A DNA stretch of 64,000 nt, from IMG/VR virus record IMGVR_UViG_3300032257_000479, positions 1 through 64,000 of that record; one strand, given 5' to 3'. Made by a program: the position numbers and the translations under genes. Of this stretch, positions 1,941 through 63,572 are shown in pieces (the first letter of the stretch is position 1; every line of letters begins with the position of its first letter). The notes under the pieces are model-generated. The model saw nothing but the letters and a program-made list of their open reading frames with translations, was not told the DNA's origin and searched no databases. Origin of the DNA: a virus.

Positions 1941-3144
1941 CTGGCGGACTCCTGGTATCATCTAAATTAATATTATAAGAGTAAGTTATACCTCTCTTAT
2001 TATGAATACCGAAAAGCTTTTGTTCAGCCCTTGTTCCTGGTAAATTATTTTTAAGAGAATAAAGATCTGAACCAACGAACGACCCATTCATCAACAATCT
2101 TCCTGTATGAGAAGTCATCTCTGCAGAATTGTGAAAATGTCCGCAAAGAGCATAATGAAGCCGTTCCTGTAGCGTTGCCTGCATCTTGTTTTTAACTTCA
2201 GCAAAACCGTTTATTGGAGTACCCTTACTTTTAACATCATCTCCATGACACAGTAGGAAGTTGTGATCCTGAATGTTGGCAATCTTGAACCAACAGCGAG
2301 GTATATCAAAAGTAATTCTTGGATTATCTCTAAATCTAGCTCTAATGTACTCGTATATAATAATGTCCCAGTTACAGTAATCTTTTTCAAAACCGCTTGG
2401 AGCAACTCGACCATGATTTCCTCGAATTCCGTAAAACTTAATTGAGCCAAAAATAGACAACCAGTAATATATGGCGTTGGAAATAGCCTCTACTCCCTCC
2501 ATTACCTGATCAAAAATAGGCGTTGATATATAAACAGGAGACCATTTTCCGGCAGCATTCATGCCGTCAACAATATCTCCTAGACAGAATATATGAAGCT
2601 CAGGTATCTGGTACATCGAAGAGTGATGCTGATATATGTCAGCTACAGCATATTGAAAGTTTTTCATTCTTTGAGCGAATACATCTAAGTTGTATTCAGA
2701 GAGGCCGCCTGTCTCTTCAAAAGAATGCTCATGACCAATATGAAGGTCGCTAAGAATGATCCCCATATGCTCAGGAGTTCCATCCTTTTGACCTTTAGGC
2801 TTCCAAGTGCTTAACGGTGCCTTTGGGAAGGCCTCCATTGCTGAACATAGCTTATCTGCTATAACTTCTGTTCTTTGCTTATGAACGCCCAATCTATTAT
2901 TTGCAACTACTTCTTGATGCTCTATAAAGTTTTTTGTCTTCCGCTTTTTTATTATTTCATTTATACGATGAGGTATGTCTGATTCTTCCCATCTTGTTCC
3001 GCGGTATTTATCTTTGCATGCCTGACTTGTTCTTCCGAGTAACTTTGCTATTTCAGGATAGGGGGTATCAAGAAATCTGTGTTCATACAGAGAAACTGTA
3101 TCTTCCATACTCCAGGGTGTTCCCATTTTACTATCTTTTGACAT
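1903..3144 (-). CDS. Calcineurin-like metallophosphoesterase with N-terminal Myb/HTH-like domain
   Basis: All five motifs present: SDLHIG, LGDIVDG, GNHGR, HGD, GHFH; N-terminal WS...YPEIAKLLGRTSQACKDKY; SD AAGGAG. Confidence 0.85.
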   Translation of the reverse strand: MSKDSKMGTPWSMEDTVSLYEHRFLDTPYPEIAKLLGRTSQACKDKYRGTRWEESDIPHRINEIIKKRKTKNFIEHQEVVANNRLGVHKQRTEVIADKLCSAMEAFPKAPLSTWKPKGQKDGTPEHMGIILSDLHIGHEHSFEETGGLSEYNLDVFAQRMKNFQYAVADIYQHHSSMYQIPELHIFCLGDIVDGMNAAGKWSPVYISTPIFDQVMEGVEAISNAIYYWLSIFGSIKFYGIRGNHGRVAPSGFEKDYCNWDIIIYEYIRARFRDNPRITFDIPRCWFKIANIQDHNFLLCHGDDVKSKGTPINGFAEVKNKMQATLQERLHYALCGHFHNSAEMTSHTGRLLMNGSFVGSDLYSLKNNLPGTRAEQKLFGIHNKRGITYSYNINLDDTRSPPDDISTSMGDTVS

Positions 3145-3892
3145 TCGTCTCTCCTTCTGTTGCAGGAATCAATTCACTTCTGAATCTTCTCCATACATGC
3201 ATATGTGCTTTAATCATTTCTGATTTATGTTTTTCTGTCATTCCGTCTGCGTTTTTGCGATACTTAATTATTATTTCCGGAAGATTCGCAAAGACTCTAC
3301 CATCAACAATAGCTCTCGCCCAAAGATCCATATCTGGAACTGTATAAATACTTTCGTCAAGAGTATACCCGCCAAGACTCTCAAACACTTCCCTTTTAAA
3401 CATTGTTGATGGATCAATCATTGGATTTAACTGTTTATGCAGCAAACCATTAACAATTTGTCTATGCCGTATTGGAGGGTAATTCATAATTCCTGTTTGC
3501 TCACTTTCGTGATCGATCATAACAGCATGTCCGCCTACACAAAACACGCTATCATTCTTCTCCAAATATGCAATTTCTTTTTCAAAACGCATCGGCAAAC
3601 TTATATCATCGCCATCGTGGATTGCTACATATTTGCCCCTAGCAAGCCCAATTGCTTCATTTCTTCTTTTCGGAATCTTTTTGTTTTCCGAACTGTTAAT
3701 CATTATAACCCTATTGTCTTCTGCTAATATTTCTGTAGCAATTTTCCATGTAGAATCAGTTGAGCCATCGTTGATTATTATCCACTCGAAATCAGAATAT
3801 GTCTGATTAAGAACAGATTGTATTGATTCTTCAATAAATTGTTCACAATTATAAAGAGTGGTTATAATTGATAGCTTAGGATTCGAATACAT
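3131..3892 (-). CDS. Glycosyltransferase family 2 (GT-A)
   Basis: SIITTLYN, SVLNQTYSDFEWIIINDGSTD, RNEAIGLARGKYVAIHDGDD (DxD). Confidence 0.92.
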   Translation of the reverse strand: MYSNPKLSIITTLYNCEQFIEESIQSVLNQTYSDFEWIIINDGSTDSTWKIATEILAEDNRVIMINSSENKKIPKRRNEAIGLARGKYVAIHDGDDISLPMRFEKEIAYLEKNDSVFCVGGHAVMIDHESEQTGIMNYPPIRHRQIVNGLLHKQLNPMIDPSTMFKREVFESLGGYTLDESIYTVPDMDLWARAIVDGRVFANLPEIIIKYRKNADGMTEKHKSEMIKAHMHVWRRFRSELIPATEGETNVKR

Positions 3893-4982
3893 TTTTATAT
3901 TGCTCCCTTACTTTTTCCCAGTTATAATCACTTAATATCATATTTTTACCCTCTGAGCTTAATTTTTGATGAAGCTTTTCATCTGACAGCAATGCATCAA
4001 GTGAGTCTGTGAACTTGCCATAAACATTTGCTGAATACTGCAACAAACCAAGCCTTGATGTAAGACTTGGACATACTATGTTGCCCGCTAAAGATGGAAC
4101 ATTTCCAACATTAAGAGCAACATATGGCAATCCTGCAGCCATGCTCTCAAGTGCCACCAAAGGAGCAACTTCAGTTTGCGAAGGGAAAGCAAATACGGCA
4201 GACTCAAAAAAAGCTTGAATCGTATCTTTTCTCGATATGTTTGTTAGTGACAGAGACGGATATTTGGCTTTTTTTAACATCATGCTATGTCGGCGTTTCA
4301 TTGATTCCGCTGGAGCGTAATTAGACTTGCTCGAAATAAATAATGCAAAAAAATCCGATCTTTTTCCATGCAACTTGTTTAGTATGTGGTGTAAATGTTC
4401 TTGCCCTTTTCCTGGAAAAAAGTTAGACACACATAATATAATCTTTTTATCTTTTGGTATATTGAATTTCTGTCTAAAGTTAAATCCTTGATCTTTAAAT
4501 TCATTTAAATCAATAGCGTTTGGTATTACATTTACCGGAATATTCATCTTCCGGCATGTTTTGTAGTCAATGTAATCATCTGAATGGGTGATTACCTTAA
4601 AGCTATTATTGTTCTTTTGAAAATTAGCAAGAGTATCGCCATTGTTTCTCATATGATTCATACCAACTAAGGCAATGCTTTTCTTTCCAGGAATTAATTT
4701 GTGATTTCTAACAATGGACGGCCACATGGAAAACGAATCACTGTAAACAAGAGTGTGATCAGGCTGCAAGCTCTTTATTTGTTCAAGAAAATGTCTCTCA
4801 GACTGCTTGCACTGAACAACTTTTACTCCATTTATAGTGGTTTGACGATCAGCCCATTTTGCAAGAACAGTACAATCCATGCCAAAATCATTCGCCATAG
4901 ATTCCGTTATTTGCTGAACAACCTTTTCTGATCCACCAACATGGAAAGGAAATGCATGATTTACACAGACTACCAACTTCAT
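3876..4982 (-). CDS. Glycosyltransferase family 4 (GT-B)
   Basis: FPFHVGGSE, VIPNAID, KGQE, FPSQTEVAPLVALESMAAGLP (Ex7E). Confidence 0.92.
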   Translation of the reverse strand: MKLVVCVNHAFPFHVGGSEKVVQQITESMANDFGMDCTVLAKWADRQTTINGVKVVQCKQSERHFLEQIKSLQPDHTLVYSDSFSMWPSIVRNHKLIPGKKSIALVGMNHMRNNGDTLANFQKNNNSFKVITHSDDYIDYKTCRKMNIPVNVIPNAIDLNEFKDQGFNFRQKFNIPKDKKIILCVSNFFPGKGQEHLHHILNKLHGKRSDFFALFISSKSNYAPAESMKRRHSMMLKKAKYPSLSLTNISRKDTIQAFFESAVFAFPSQTEVAPLVALESMAAGLPYVALNVGNVPSLAGNIVCPSLTSRLGLLQYSANVYGKFTDSLDALLSDEKLHQKLSSEGKNMILSDYNWEKVREQYKNVFES

Positions 4983-4988
4983 AAAACC

Positions 4989-62291: not shown

Positions 62292-62371
62292 AACTTTACT
62301 GCTAATACAGTCAAGCTATTATTCAATTAATGAAATAATTAGCAAACTCCTTCTATGAAAAGATTAGAAAT

Positions 62372-63547
62372 TTAAAAACTATCTACAGCTATTTGAGTTT
62401 TTGATAATTTGGTCCTTTTTACAAGGTCGCTAATAGAATTAGTGAAACTATTCTTTGAGTATAATCGAGCTATTTTCGCCGATTCTTCAGATAGGGCCTT
62501 GAGTTTATCTGGTTCTTTTATTGCCCATTTATTCAATTCGGAAATACGAGAAGAAAGACCTTCCATAGAAATGACTGAAAATTCTTCTTCGTTCGCTCCA
62601 ATATAGTTTTCATGGCCTATCAACAAAAAGCTTGGATCATTAAAATGACTAAGTATTTCGCCTGAACGACCTGACATTATGCCCACAGGAATGCATCCGC
62701 ACGCCATTGCTTCAAGCATAGAGAGGCAGGAAGCCCCTTTTACGGATGTTTCCACAAAGAAGCTGTGAGACATGTATTCATCTCTCATATCCTCATCTGG
62801 TATAGACTCTTTTACTGAAATATATTTATCAGGTAATGATACATTTGAGGCATTATATCTATCCATAAGAAGATCGATATCGTAATCTCCTGGATCATAT
62901 AGGTTTGTGTGCAAATAGCCTTTTGCTTCAGGAACATCTGACATTGATTTTATGAATGCCCCAATATTTGAGGCTTGAGCATTTTTAGCGGAACACATGA
63001 AAGAAATATTTCTTTTTATTTCATTTTTTTCAAAAAATATATCATCTGGTCCCAAATTTATTTTTGTTATTTCCGCATTCAACAGTGCAGCAAGGGCTTT
63101 ATGTCCAAAATCATTTACTGAAACAATCGCATCTGCATACTCTAGTTGTTGCTTATGGTTTTCGTTTATAGGCAAACAATCTATAGCCAAAACTGATATC
63201 CATTTAAAGAAATTGGGAATCATAGCTTTTACTTCCCATATAAAATCTGTTTCCTTGTAATCACCAATACTTATAACAATATCAGGTTGAACTTTTTTCA
63301 TTAATTCATATATGGTTGCAGAAGCCTGAGAATCTGTTTCCATTGGATATATTACTGCTAATTTTTCATTGTTCTTTTCGTACCAATGGGCTCCGCCTTC
63401 TTCTGGTAAAAAGAATCCTTCATCATGGTGCCATGATGCAGTTGATACTTCATGGTTTTCTGATACTAATTTTTCAATAATTGCCGCATTCATTCTTCCG
63501 TTTCGGACTAATAAATATGGCGATGCGCTAACTGTAAGAATCTTCAT
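62372..63547 (-). CDS. GT-B fold, GT4-like glycosyltransferase (atypical motif), 391 aa
   Basis: MKILTVS, KVQPDIVISIGD, ADAIVSVNDFG, SCLSMLEAMACGCIPV; first Glu of Ex7E replaced by Gly. Confidence 0.8.
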   Translation of the reverse strand: MKILTVSASPYLLVRNGRMNAAIIEKLVSENHEVSTASWHHDEGFFLPEEGGAHWYEKNNEKLAVIYPMETDSQASATIYELMKKVQPDIVISIGDYKETDFIWEVKAMIPNFFKWISVLAIDCLPINENHKQQLEYADAIVSVNDFGHKALAALLNAEITKINLGPDDIFFEKNEIKRNISFMCSAKNAQASNIGAFIKSMSDVPEAKGYLHTNLYDPGDYDIDLLMDRYNASNVSLPDKYISVKESIPDEDMRDEYMSHSFFVETSVKGASCLSMLEAMACGCIPVGIMSGRSGEILSHFNDPSFLLIGHENYIGANEEEFSVISMEGLSSRISELNKWAIKEPDKLKALSEESAKIARLYSKNSFTNSISDLVKRTKLSKTQIAVDSF

Positions 63548-63564
63548 AAAAATCTCCTACAATA

Positions 63565-63572
63565 TTATCGAC
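63565..63572 (-). promoter_or_regulatory. Putative late promoter -10 element GTCGATAA
   Basis: Intergenic; the 7-nt rule puts +1 at A63558, the first base of the AGGAG SD. Confidence 0.6.

What the first reader, a model, noticed from the sequence alone, without database searches (positions are those of the whole stretch)
3131..63572. Candidate phage virion-glycosylation system: five glycosyltransferases co-regulated with a giant tail apparatus
Seen: five GTs (GT2 3131-3892, GT4 3876-4982, GT2 5005-5772, GT4 43583-44680, GT4-like 62372-63547) flank and interrupt the tail module, and one overlaps the start of a 2565-aa structural gene. Three carry the same CGATA promoter-like motif as the structural genes and a fourth overlaps one of those three. 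No DNA-modification or replication genes lie in the window. Established: some mycobacteriophages glycosylate capsid and tail proteins using GTs encoded among structural genes. Inference: this is a multi-enzyme, late-expressed pathway that builds an oligosaccharide on the tail/adhesin proteins, possibly at the DPY motif or the Ser/Thr-rich linkers.
Basis: partly seen in the sequence, partly recalled or inferred. Interest (0 to 1): 0.85.

Follow-up and report, generated by a model that had tools for sequence, protein, structure and literature searches.

The report
Glycosyltransferases built into a huge phage's virion genes
A fragment of an uncultured marine phage of about half a megabase keeps several sugar-transferring enzymes at fixed places inside its head and tail gene block. 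This most likely means the virus sugar-coats its own particle, but no chemistry shows what the enzymes act on.

Summary
Four of the five genes are clear glycosyltransferases (two GT2, two GT4). The fifth has a confident GT-B fold but lacks the usual catalytic Glu motif. The CGATA word before three of them is not chance, and it fits a FliA/WhiG-like sigma factor encoded on the same contig. One statement is wrong: an SbcD/Mre11-type nuclease gene overlaps the end of the GT trio.

New here:
- The window is the first 64 kb of a 169.5 kb piece of a phage of about 490 kb.
- In relatives down to 30% identity, the baseplate-side GT4, the GT-B-like gene before the tube gene and a paralogous GT4 beside the capsid gene keep their places in the head-tail block, with overlapping reading frames.
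- The GT2-GT4-GT2 trio is kept only in the closer subclade.
- Complete relatives also carry a nonulosonic-acid island (NeuB, cytidylyltransferase, MptE/Maf-like genes and about nine GTs).
- No hydroxymethylase, C5-methylase, TET or T4-type DNA glucosyltransferase was found, and no membrane GT or flippase.

I read this as virion-protein glycosylation (about 0.45). Host-surface remodelling and DNA glycosylation remain open. DPY and Ser/Thr linkers are unsupported as acceptor sites. The scan has reported similar candidate systems in other phages.

The parts
62372..63547 (-). GT-B-fold protein (the 'fifth GT'), two genes upstream of the tail tube gene. The catalytic motif is degenerate.
   Evidence: phrog_2170 at 1e-12. 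Pfam is below cut-off. AF2 pLDDT 84, with Foldseek matches to GT4 structures at TM about 0.7. Orthologs sit at the same place in 12 of 15 related records. GEGFG is replaced by KSAT.
63566..63570 (-). CGATA word 18 nt before the ATG of 62372-63547, followed by a GGAG ribosome-binding site
   Evidence: Conserved upstream of the orthologs in L100, L102 and L108.
60732..61787 (-). Tail tube protein
   Evidence: PF18906 Phage_tube_2 at 6e-14. phrog_290 at 1e-19.
55681..58998 (-). Probable tape measure protein
   Evidence: phrog_794 and phrog_167, tape measure, at 3.5e-8 and 3e-5. Hydrophobic segments.
44693..55657 (-). Three proteins of about 1200 aa (1225, 1175 and 1173 aa) plus a 70-aa ORF, following the tape measure. 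They are inferred to be distal-tail or baseplate proteins.
   Evidence: Assigned by position only. No Pfam, PHROG, PDB or Atlas match. Syntenic in all relatives. CGATA lies at 55665-55669 (7 nt before the ATG) and 48226-48230 (11 nt before it).
43583..44680 (-). Tail-module GT4 ('GT4b'), translationally coupled to the genes on both sides
   Evidence: PF00534 and PF13692 above cut-off. phrog_2170 at 7e-42. 178 homologues, many on contigs of 100-570 kb. Always lies between the 1173-aa and 2565-aa homologues at 30-61% identity. The tail-position sequences form one clade with SH-aLRT 99.
5795..43608 (-). Eight fibre- or adhesin-like proteins of 2565, 494, 510, 372, 2814, 1493, 1096 and 3234 aa
   Evidence: Domains found: LamG, Kelch, VWA, fn3, GH56-like, DUF642, Laminin_B and an Ig-like domain. 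Collinear in G001. CGATA at 15507-15511 lies 7 nt before the ATG of the 3234-aa gene.
5005..5772 (-). GT2 ('GT2b') with CGATA 7 nt before the ATG (5780-5784) and no Shine-Dalgarno sequence
   Evidence: PF00535 at 8e-18. The DND motif is conserved. The G001 ortholog also carries CGATA.
3876..4982 (-). GT4 ('GT4a') with CGATA 7 nt before the ATG (4990-4994)
   Evidence: PF00534 at 1e-16. Canonical E-x7-E motif. The G001 ortholog also carries CGATA.
3131..3892 (-). GT2 ('GT2a'), overlapping GT4a upstream and the nuclease gene downstream
   Evidence: PF00535 at 9e-33. DGDD motif. Nearest solved relatives are chondroitin synthase K4CP and GalT1.
1903..3144 (-). SbcD/Mre11-type exonuclease, coupled to the GT trio. 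It is not part of a glycosylation system, but it limits the operon argument.
   Evidence: phrog_284 exonuclease at 2e-47. PF00149 Metallophos. Same order in G001.

Best explanation
The window is the tail half of the morphogenetic gene block of an uncultured marine phage of about 490 kb. Soluble glycosyltransferases are built into that block as long-standing members.

Where the enzymes sit:
- One GT4 lies two genes after the capsid gene, just outside the window.
- A GT-B-fold protein lies before the tube gene.
- One GT4 is wedged between the last baseplate-type gene and the first giant fibre gene.
- In the closer subclade, a GT2-GT4-GT2 trio follows the last fibre gene.

Most likely mechanism:
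- These enzymes are made together with the structural proteins. Transcription would start from CGATA(A) promoters read by the phage's FliA/WhiG-type sigma factor, or run through from upstream structural genes.
- In the cytoplasm they transfer sugars from nucleotide sugars onto virion proteins before or during assembly.
- The nucleotide sugars include ones made by the phage's own nonulosonic-acid and GDP-sugar genes seen in complete relatives.
- The result would be glycosylated head and tail surfaces.

What is shown and what is inferred:
- Shown: enzyme families, the fold of the fifth protein, conserved motifs, conserved positions and overlaps, non-random promoter words, the sugar-pathway genes in relatives, and no hit to the known DNA-base-hydroxylating or DNA-glucosylating families searched.
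- Inferred: late timing, protein as the acceptor, which proteins and residues are modified, and whether the fifth protein is active.
For: 1. Four GTs score above the Pfam cut-offs and keep their catalytic motifs. The fifth has a GT-B fold.
2. The tail GT4 lies between the same two gene families in 20 of the 22 closest loci (L019-L040; the same holds in L050), down to 30% identity. The exceptions are L035 and L034, where pieces of the giant lie on both sides. Reading frames abut or overlap. The tail-position sequences form one clade.
3. The GT-B-like gene keeps its place about 19 kb upstream in 12 of 15 related records. A GT4 of 450-490 aa lies at the capsid-side distance from the tail GT4 even in the most distant records, G011-G013; adjacency to the capsid gene was checked only in the window's contig and in G001. 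The major capsid protein is 88681-89559.
4. The GT2 pair is kept 37-46 kb downstream of the tail GT4 in 11 records. G001 is collinear with the window.
5. CGATA lies exactly 7 nt before the ATG of 6 genes, against 0.19 expected. Two of the six are GT genes and two are giant tail genes. The word is conserved before the G001 orthologs. A FliA/WhiG-like sigma factor is encoded at 124922-125749. The sigma-28 -10 consensus GCCGATAA is established knowledge.
6. Complete relatives carry NeuB, a CMP-sugar cytidylyltransferase, MptE/Maf-like genes, GDP-mannose dehydratase, methyltransferases and about nine more GTs. The nonulosonic-acid core is kept in G001-G004.
7. The GTs have no transmembrane segments, and no Wzx/Wzy-like protein is encoded in the 169 kb.
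8. The ThyA homologue is a canonical dTMP synthase with DHFR next to it, and it is absent from two complete relatives. No TET/JBP, C5-methylase or T4 AGT family hit was found.
9. Precedent: virus-encoded GTs glycosylate virions of mycobacteriophages (Freeman et al. 2023, as cited in PMC12619734) and of giant viruses (PMC9614988).
Against: - No acceptor evidence of any kind exists.
- The capsid and tube proteins lack the Ser/Thr-rich C-terminal tags seen in glycosylated mycobacteriophages. The tail giants have no marked Ser/Thr linkers.
- The gene order of the whole block is conserved, so a fixed position is partly just vertical inheritance.
- The GT trio is also coupled to a nuclease gene, so operon membership does not specify function.
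- Homologues at 25-30% identity sit as tandem pairs in replication modules of another lineage.
- Known DNA glycosyltransferases have the same GT-B/GT4-like fold and the same top structural matches (PMC13326640).
- One close homologue (L035) is not in a tail context.
- The nearest solved relative, chlorovirus B736L, has no known acceptor.
- The nonulosonic-acid island is not on this contig, and its place varies among relatives.
- The MptE-like assignment is weak: scores are just above cut-off, the model was poor, and there was no PDB match.
- A CGATA-containing word (CACCGATAA) also precedes small, probably early genes, so the word alone does not prove late timing.
Confidence: 0.45

Rival explanations
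1. Host envelope remodelling. The soluble GT2 and GT4 enzymes act on lipid-linked or cell-wall glycan intermediates of the host. This would change the surface polysaccharide that the giant lectin-like fibres bind. The effect would be to block superinfection, or to stop progeny from sticking to debris. Linkage to receptor-binding genes would then reflect matched specificity, as with receptor-masking genes beside RBP genes in other phages.
For: - GT2a is closest to polysaccharide-type GT2 enzymes: EpsE, TuaG and chondroitin synthase.
- PHROG labels these families 'O-antigen conversion / moron'.
- GT clusters of jumbo phages and cyanophages are usually read as surface-polysaccharide diversification (PMC7824862; PMC12801897).
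- The GT complement of the island varies among relatives.
- A polysaccharide pyruvyl transferase lies beside another GT4 at 142731-144999.
- The trio sits directly after the last fibre gene.
Against: - No GtrA/GtrC, Wzx, Wzy, initiating phosphoglycosyltransferase or other multi-pass membrane protein is encoded in the 169 kb. The GT2s lack the GtrB membrane anchor.
- Three of the GT-B genes are strictly conserved core genes at head, tube and baseplate positions, not sporadic. This does not fit a diversifying host-surface function.
- Changing the host surface late in a lytic cycle has limited value.
Confidence: 0.22
2. DNA glycosylation. Some or all of the GT-B enzymes add sugars to modified bases of the phage genome to evade restriction and CRISPR, as in T-even phages, RB69/DLP3 and other hypermodifying phages.
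For: - Homologues of the tail GT4 at 25-30% identity lie as tandem pairs between exonuclease, RuvC, primase, helicase and UvsX genes and an HNH/Mom-like gene in another viral lineage. In some of these loci a ThyA-like and a DHFR-like gene lie between the pair.
- Known DNA arabinosyl- and glucosyl-transferases have the same fold and the same best structural matches, MshA, BshA and SPS (PMC13326640).
- Phage G carries two T4 alpha-gt homologues (PMC6024577).
- The GT trio overlaps an SbcD-type nuclease gene.
- The tail GT4 also matches Pfam 'GT4 in conflict systems'.
Against: - The contig's ThyA homologue has the dUMP-specific Asn (PFNIASY) and a DHFR gene next to it, so it makes dTMP. Complete relatives G002 and G003 have no ThyA-family gene at all, yet keep the GTs.
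- No C5-methyltransferase scored above cut-off, and there was no TET/JBP or AGT-family hit in three complete relatives. The TET control was silent, so that result is weak.
- The GTs sit in structural operons behind structural-gene promoters, not with nucleotide metabolism.
- The tail-position clade is separate from the replication-module clades.
Confidence: 0.1
3. Non-catalytic or mixed roles. The GT-B-like protein before the tube gene, and perhaps others, has lost transferase activity. It would serve as an assembly factor, a sugar-nucleotide-binding chaperone or a virion component. The active GTs may serve different ends, so there is no single 'system'.
For: - The fifth protein lacks the GEGFG Glu and falls below the Pfam cut-offs, yet it is conserved at 22-57% identity at a fixed place.
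- The five genes belong to three separately conserved groups with different phyletic spread.
Against: - The second Glu of the motif and a basic residue at the phosphate-binding position are kept, so nucleotide-sugar binding is plausible.
- The other four enzymes keep full catalytic motifs.
Confidence: 0.12

Closest known systems
Mycobacteriophage virion glycosylation (Che8, Corndog, Myrna; Freeman et al. 2023, Cell Host Microbe; known here only through citations in PMC12619734 and PMC12801897)
   Same: Phage-encoded soluble GTs are encoded among or next to capsid and tail genes. Cytoplasmic modification of virion proteins is proposed.
   Different: - No Ser/Thr-rich C-terminal tags on the capsid or tube protein.
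- GT-B enzymes are spread over head, tube and baseplate positions rather than sitting in one cassette.
- The genome is about ten times larger, the phage is marine and uncultured, and relatives carry a nonulosonic-acid pathway.
- No chemistry has been done. I did not test sequence relatedness to the Che8 enzymes.
Autonomous glycosylation of giant viruses (chlorovirus PBCV-1 and NY-2A; Mimivirus fibrils; review PMC9614988)
   Same: - Many virus-encoded GTs together with sugar-nucleotide synthesis genes.
- The best solved relative of the tail GT4 family is chlorovirus GT B736L (3oy2, E 3e-17), which binds GDP-mannose. A GDP-mannose dehydratase is present in relatives.
   Different: - The host is bacterial and the virion is tailed.
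- The acceptor of B736L is itself unknown, so the likeness says little about the target.
- Here the GT genes are embedded in structural operons.
Phage DNA glycosylation systems (T4 alpha/beta-gt; RB69/DLP3 arabinosyl-5-hydroxy-cytosine, PMC13326640; 5hmC glycans, bioRxiv 10.1101/2023.12.21.572611)
   Same: GT-B/GT4-like fold with the same structural neighbours. Distant homologues lie in replication modules of another lineage.
   Different: No ThyA-family hydroxylase or hydroxymethylase, dCTPase-kinase cluster, C5-methylase/TET pair or AGT-family enzyme was found here or in complete relatives. The genes lie in structural operons.
GT-rich 'cell-wall synthesis and modification' islands of large cyanomyoviruses and jumbo phages (PMC12801897; PMC7824862) and the four core GT orthogroups of moraphages (PMC12619734)
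   Same: Large aquatic phages with many GTs and sugar-nucleotide enzymes. Complete relatives here have about 15-18 GT domains, including ORFs of 2000-2990 aa with several GT2 domains.
   Different: Those islands are read as auxiliary, sporadic host-surface genes. Here, at least three GT-B genes are fixed core members of the head-tail block, apart from the variable island.
Flagellin O-glycosylation with pseudaminic or legionaminic acid (Maf/FlmG with NeuB and a CMP-sugar synthetase; PMC7591256)
   Same: Relatives carry MptE/DUF115-like genes directly beside a cytidylyltransferase and NeuB. This is the gene set used for cytoplasmic O-glycosylation of a filament protein.
   Different: - The phage proteins are about 250 aa, against about 600 for Maf.
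- Scores are just above cut-off, the model was poor, and there was no PDB match.
- The island is not on the window's contig, which has only sub-threshold MptE-like genes at 122411-123765.

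Membership tests
GT2 (Pfam PF00535, GT-A fold) | Profile score above the curated cut-off, and a DXD metal/nucleotide-sugar motif | tested here: met
   3131-3892 scores 114 bits and 5005-5772 scores 65 bits, against a cut-off of 23.3. DGDD and DND motifs are conserved in the G001 orthologs.
GT4-type GT-B (Pfam PF00534 / PF13692) | Profile score above cut-off, and the E-x7-E region in the C-terminal Rossmann domain | tested here: met
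   3876-4982 scores 61 bits and has a canonical E-x7-E motif. 43583-44680 scores 65-68 bits; its GEGFG is invariant across 21 homologues, and the second position is Gln.
GT4-type GT-B, for the fifth gene 62372-63547 | Profile score above cut-off and the catalytic Glu of the GEGFG motif | tested here: not met
   Pfam scores of 18.7-20.6 bits are below the cut-offs of 26.4 and 27. GEGFG is replaced by K-S-A-T in the family alignment. The fold itself is GT-B. I therefore file it as GT-B-fold, activity unknown.
Mycobacteriophage-type virion glycosylation | GT genes encoded among or next to virion structural genes | tested here: met
Mycobacteriophage-type virion glycosylation | Ser/Thr-rich C-terminal acceptor regions on the capsid and tail tube subunits | tested here: not met
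   The C-termini of the major capsid protein (88681-89559) and the tube (60732-61787) carry no such tract. The only poly-Thr run in the contig is in the 770-aa protein 76359-78671.
Mycobacteriophage-type virion glycosylation | Glycans detected on virion proteins | not testable with these tools
Phage DNA glycosylation (T-even / RB69 type) | A ThyA-family enzyme that makes 5-hydroxymethyl- or 5-hydroxy-pyrimidine nucleotides | tested here: not met
   The only ThyA homologue (129446-130255) scores 412 bits to PF00303, has PCH and PFNIASY (Asn), and has DHFR next door. G002 and G003 have none.
Phage DNA glycosylation (post-replicative 5mC to 5hmC type, or T4 AGT type) | A C5-cytosine methyltransferase plus a TET/JBP dioxygenase, or an AGT-family transferase | tested here: inconclusive
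   No hit above cut-off in G000-G003. The TET/JBP control rang nowhere, and G000 is only 25% of a genome.
Gtr-type O-antigen conversion (GtrA/GtrB/GtrC) | A GtrB-type GT2 with a C-terminal membrane anchor, plus the GtrA flippase and the GtrC membrane transferase | tested here: not met
   Only a partial N-terminal match to GtrB-like PHROGs. None of the GTs has a hydrophobic segment. Only two proteins reached three hydrophobic windows, the tape measure and the 358-aa protein 125762-126838; the latter is the only candidate membrane protein.
Nonulosonic-acid protein glycosylation (NeuB + CMP-sugar synthetase + Maf/DUF115) | All three gene types present and adjacent | tested here: inconclusive
   Met in relatives G001-G004. 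On the window's own contig there are only two sub-threshold MptE-like genes, and the syntenic island would lie beyond the contig end. The Maf-like fold is not confirmed.
Sigma-28 (FliA/WhiG) promoters | A FliA/WhiG-type sigma factor, and a -10 element GCCGATAA with a -35 TAAA at 15 nt | tested here: inconclusive
   The sigma factor at 124922-125749 matches FliA/WhiG models best (164-178 bits, below the equivalog cut-offs). The CGATA(A) word is present and positionally fixed. No consistent TAAA -35 was seen by eye.

The most novel reading that the evidence does not exclude
A whole clade of marine phages of about 0.5 Mb builds glycosylated virions with its own enzymes. Paralogous GT-B transferases would be dedicated to the head, the tail tube and the baseplate/fibre sub-assemblies, each encoded inside the matching gene module. 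They would be fed by a phage-encoded nonulosonic-acid and deoxy-sugar pathway with a variable set of further GTs. That would be a bacterial-virus counterpart of the autonomous glycosylation of giant eukaryotic viruses.
Probability: 0.35. Interest if true: 0.75.

Novelty: new variant of a known kind. Interest (0 to 1): 0.55.

Why it matters
- Virion glycosylation by phage-encoded enzymes has been shown only for actinobacteriophages. Autonomous glycosylation is otherwise a hallmark of giant eukaryotic viruses.
- If these abundant marine huge phages coat their heads and giant adhesin-like tails with self-made glycans, possibly sialic-acid-like sugars, several things would change. These include how we think about particle stability, grazing, adsorption and defence evasion in the sea.
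- It would also give a conserved, testable gene set (three core GT-B genes at fixed places) for finding such phages.
- If the enzymes instead act on DNA or on the host surface, the fixed placement inside structural operons would itself need explaining.

Tried and rejected
- **Cultured relatives.** None were found. Megablast of 25 kb and tblastn of the tube and 1173-aa proteins against 50,697 phage records gave nothing. The tail GT4 hits only Streptomyces, Flavobacterium and other phage GTs at 22-34% identity. In Streptomyces phage Tomas that GT lies among nucleotide-metabolism genes.
- **First locus search.** A single-protein search for related loci found nothing. The alignment-based search worked.
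- **MptE-like protein.** The AlphaFold model was too poor to search (pLDDT 59), and PDB sequence searches gave nothing.
- **Neighbouring proteins.** PDB, Atlas and PHROG searches of the ~1200-aa proteins and other tail-region proteins gave no annotation.
- **DPY as a sequon.** DPY is enriched (19 found against 5.2 expected, 11 of them in the giant proteins), and the DPY-DPY site of the 2565-aa protein is conserved. Nothing links it to glycosylation, so I dropped it as an acceptor motif.
- **Ser/Thr linkers.** No window of 30 residues with at least 50% Ser+Thr occurs in any tail protein.
- **Recoding in L039.** Rejected. The broken genes change frame, so these are indel errors.
- **Moraphages.** Considered as the lineage and rejected. 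Those genomes reach only 307 kb.
- **Complex prediction.** Not used. An enzyme with an unknown substrate is not a case that tool can decide.

Full report
**What the window is.** All substantial ORFs of the 64 kb lie on the minus strand, at about 37% G+C. The window is bases 1-64000 of an IMG/VR virus contig of 169,505 bp that CheckV rates 25% complete. Complete relatives with terminal repeats are 488 and 498 kb. No cultured phage is close.

Read in the direction of transcription, the window holds these genes:
- a GT-B-like gene (62372-63547) and a 123-aa gene;
- the tail tube gene (60732-61787; PF18906 at 6e-14) and two small genes;
- a probable tape measure gene (55681-58998; PHROG tape-measure families at 3.5e-8);
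- three genes of about 1200 aa;
- a GT4 gene (43583-44680);
- eight fibre- or adhesin-like genes of up to 3234 aa, with LamG, Kelch, VWA, fn3, GH56-like, DUF642 and laminin-B domains;
- a GT2-GT4-GT2 trio (5772-3131);
- an SbcD/Mre11-type nuclease gene (3144-1903).

Only the tube, and weakly the tape measure, have homology support as tail proteins. The rest is assigned by position and domain content.

**Checking the observation.** Four GTs are solid. They score above the Pfam cut-offs and keep DXD or E-x7-E motifs in orthologs.

The fifth gene is below the Pfam cut-offs, but other evidence places it in the same fold class:
- It matches a phage GT family (phrog_2170 at 1e-12).
- With 12 orthologs it gives a confident model (pLDDT 84).
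- That model matches MshA, BshA, sucrose-phosphate synthase, PimA and chlorovirus B736L at TM about 0.7.
- Its family has K-S-A-T where GT4 enzymes have G-E-G-F-G.

So the fold is certain and the activity is not.

The stated overlaps are real, and the one between the GT4 and the 2565-aa gene is conserved in relatives.

CGATA is not over-represented in the contig as a whole (204 copies on the coding strand). Even so, it lies exactly 7 nt before the ATG of six genes that have no Shine-Dalgarno sequence, against 0.19 expected (P about 6e-8). Those six include two of the GTs and the 3234-aa and 1225-aa genes. It lies 11 nt before the ATG of the 1173-aa gene and of the capsid-side GT, and 18 nt before that of the fifth GT-like gene. 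The word is kept before the G001 orthologs of GT2b and GT4a, and before three orthologs of the fifth gene.

The contig encodes a sigma factor whose best matches are FliA/WhiG. The -10 element of that class is GCCGATAA (textbook knowledge), so a phage-specific promoter is plausible. I saw no -35 element. A related word (CACCGATAA, about 38 nt upstream, followed by a ribosome-binding site) precedes many small genes at 160-169 kb. The word alone therefore does not prove 'late'.

**Beyond the window: the pattern is a property of a clade.** The tail GT4 has 178 homologues, many on contigs of 100-570 kb. An alignment-based scan of IMG/VR returned 80 loci.

- *Tail GT4.* In 20 of the 22 closest loci (L019-L040, 30-61% identity), and again in L050, the GT4 lies between the homologue of the 1173-aa gene and the homologue or homologues of the 2565-aa gene. 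Frames abut or overlap. L035 is the exception, and in L034 pieces of the giant lie on both sides. The tail-position sequences form one clade (SH-aLRT 99; quick tree only).
- *Fifth gene.* It keeps its place about 19 kb upstream in 12 of 15 related records, down to 22% identity. A second scan found it only in this clade.
- *Capsid-side GT4.* A third GT-B gene (86315-87715, outside the window) is a clear paralogue of the tail GT4 (hhalign 6e-34). It lies two genes after the major capsid gene (88681-89559, phrog_2522 at 4e-67). A GT4 of matching size lies at the matching distance from the tail GT4 in the complete relatives and in the most distant records; its place next to the capsid gene was checked only here and in G001.
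- *The trio.* The GT2 pair lies 37-46 kb downstream of the tail GT4 in 11 records, but is absent from the three most distant ones. G001 shows the same order: 3234-aa gene, GT2, GT4, GT2, nuclease.

The five genes are therefore three units of different age. Two are old, single GT-B genes, with a third of the same kind at the capsid. One is a younger trio.

**Sugar supply.** Complete relatives carry 15-18 GT domains. In G001 an operon-like island at 416-446 kb holds:
- two MptE/DUF115-like genes, a CMP-sugar cytidylyltransferase and NeuB;
- several methyltransferases, including a sugar C-methyltransferase type;
- GDP-mannose 4,6-dehydratase and dehydrogenases;
- about nine GTs.

The MptE-like/cytidylyltransferase/NeuB core is kept in G001-G004, while the GT complement differs. 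In G007 a 2990-aa protein with at least six GT2 domains, plus about 20 kb of further genes, is inserted between two conserved neck-region genes.

The island would lie beyond the start of the window's contig. The contig itself has only two sub-threshold MptE-like genes, a pyruvyl transferase and one more GT4. DUF115/Maf proteins are known as flagellin nonulosonic-acid transferases (PMC7591256 gives the context). That is a lead towards protein acceptors, but my model of the phage protein was poor (pLDDT 59) and no solved relative was found.

**Testing the rivals.**

*DNA glycosylation* deserves respect, for these reasons:
- Homologues of the tail GT4 at 25-30% identity lie as tandem pairs in a replication module of another lineage. 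The module runs UvsX, DnaB, primase, RuvC, exonuclease, GT, GT, HNH/Mom-like, sometimes with ThyA-like and DHFR-like genes between the pair.
- Proven DNA arabinosyltransferases share the fold and the same structural neighbours (PMC13326640).

Against it:
- The only ThyA homologue here is a canonical thymidylate synthase. It scores 412 bits, has PCH and the Asn of PFNIASY, and has DHFR adjacent. Two complete relatives have no ThyA-family gene, yet keep all the GTs.
- No C5-methylase, TET/JBP or T4 AGT-family hit appeared. The TET control was silent, so that result is weak.

*Host-surface remodelling* is the usual reading of GT islands in large phages (PMC7824862, PMC12801897). It fits the variable island and the polysaccharide-type affinities of GT2a. 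However, none of the GTs has a membrane segment, and no flippase, polymerase or Gtr partner is encoded in the 169 kb. Strictly conserved core genes at head, tube and baseplate positions also do not look like diversifying host-surface genes.

**Acceptor motifs.** DPY occurs 19 times in the contig's proteins against 5.2 expected, 11 of them in the tail giants. The DPY-DPY site of the 2565-aa protein is conserved in an otherwise variable stretch. This is a real oddity with no link to glycosylation.

Ser/Thr-rich linkers are not a feature of the tail proteins. Following a lead from other reports of this scan, I looked for poly-Thr tags. The contig has just one, T-T-T-T-S-T-T-T in the 770-aa protein 76359-78671 of the head-neck region, and it is conserved in G001. 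The capsid and tube proteins have none.

My estimates are:
- virion-protein glycosylation by module-embedded GTs, about 0.45;
- host-envelope remodelling, about 0.22;
- DNA glycosylation, about 0.10;
- mixed or non-catalytic roles, about 0.12.

The nearest solved relative, chlorovirus B736L (E 3e-17), does not settle the matter because its own acceptor is unknown.

I rate the finding a new variant of a known kind. The precedents are virion glycosylation in actinobacteriophages and giant viruses, and GT-rich jumbo phages. What is new is a conserved set of GT-B genes at fixed head, tube and baseplate positions in a clade of half-megabase phages, with a nonulosonic-acid pathway in its complete members. 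Other reports of this scan describe candidate virion-glycosylation systems in other phages, mostly marked by poly-Thr tags, which are nearly absent here.

Noticed in passing
window 1903-3144 (-): An SbcD/Mre11-type exonuclease gene whose start codon lies inside the last 14 nt of the GT2 gene. The same order is seen in G001. No SbcC-like partner was seen among the next genes.
   Followed up: partly
G000 contig 124922-125749 (-), L006:922-1749: A phage-encoded sigma factor with regions 2, 3 and 4 whose best matches are FliA/WhiG (sigma-28). It fits the CGATA(A) words placed 7 nt before leaderless start codons.
   Followed up: partly
window 39370-39390 region (2565-aa protein, residues 1411-1416): A DPY-DPY doublet is conserved in ten orthologs within an otherwise variable stretch. 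DPY is about eight-fold enriched in the giant tail proteins. Its meaning is unknown.
   Followed up: partly
G000 contig 76359-78671 (-), residues 722-729: The only poly-Thr tract of the whole contig (TTTTSTTT) lies in a conserved C-terminal domain of a 770-aa head-neck protein, and it is kept in G001. It is a candidate O-glycosylation site by analogy with other phages.
   Followed up: partly
G007:C1:22255-31227 (L121); also G003 430-437 kb and G008 237-243 kb: Single ORFs of 2000-2990 aa with at least five or six GT2 domains. In G007 the ORF, plus about 20 kb of further genes, is inserted between homologues of the neck-region genes 74090-74743 and 73075-74088.
   Followed up: partly
G001:C1:416561-446351 (L114, L115): A glycan island with MptE-like x2, a cytidylyltransferase, NeuB, methyltransferases, GDP-mannose 4,6-dehydratase, a GAPDH-like gene, a 2-hydroxyacid dehydrogenase and about nine GTs. 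The core is conserved in G001-G004 and the GT set is variable.
   Followed up: partly
L041-L055, L059, L094 (other viral lineage): Tandem GT4 pairs inside a replication module, in the order UvsX, DnaB, primase, RuvC, exonuclease, GT, GT, HNH/Mom-like. In L059 and L060 ThyA-like and DHFR-like genes lie between the two GTs. This is a likely DNA-glycosylation cassette.
   Followed up: partly
L039 (IMGVR_UViG_3300045125_000158): The tail genes of this relative are broken into many short ORFs. tblastn shows the pieces change frame, so these are indel errors of the assembly and not stop-codon recoding. Whether base modification contributes to such errors is unknown.
   Followed up: yes
G000 contig 128937-130255 (-): A canonical thymidylate synthase (PCH, PFNIASY) with a dihydrofolate reductase gene directly downstream. 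Complete relatives G002 and G003 lack any ThyA-family gene.
   Followed up: yes
G000 contig 142731-144999 (+): A polysaccharide pyruvyl transferase overlapping a further GT4 gene on the opposite strand from most genes. This is a small separate glycan module.
   Followed up: no
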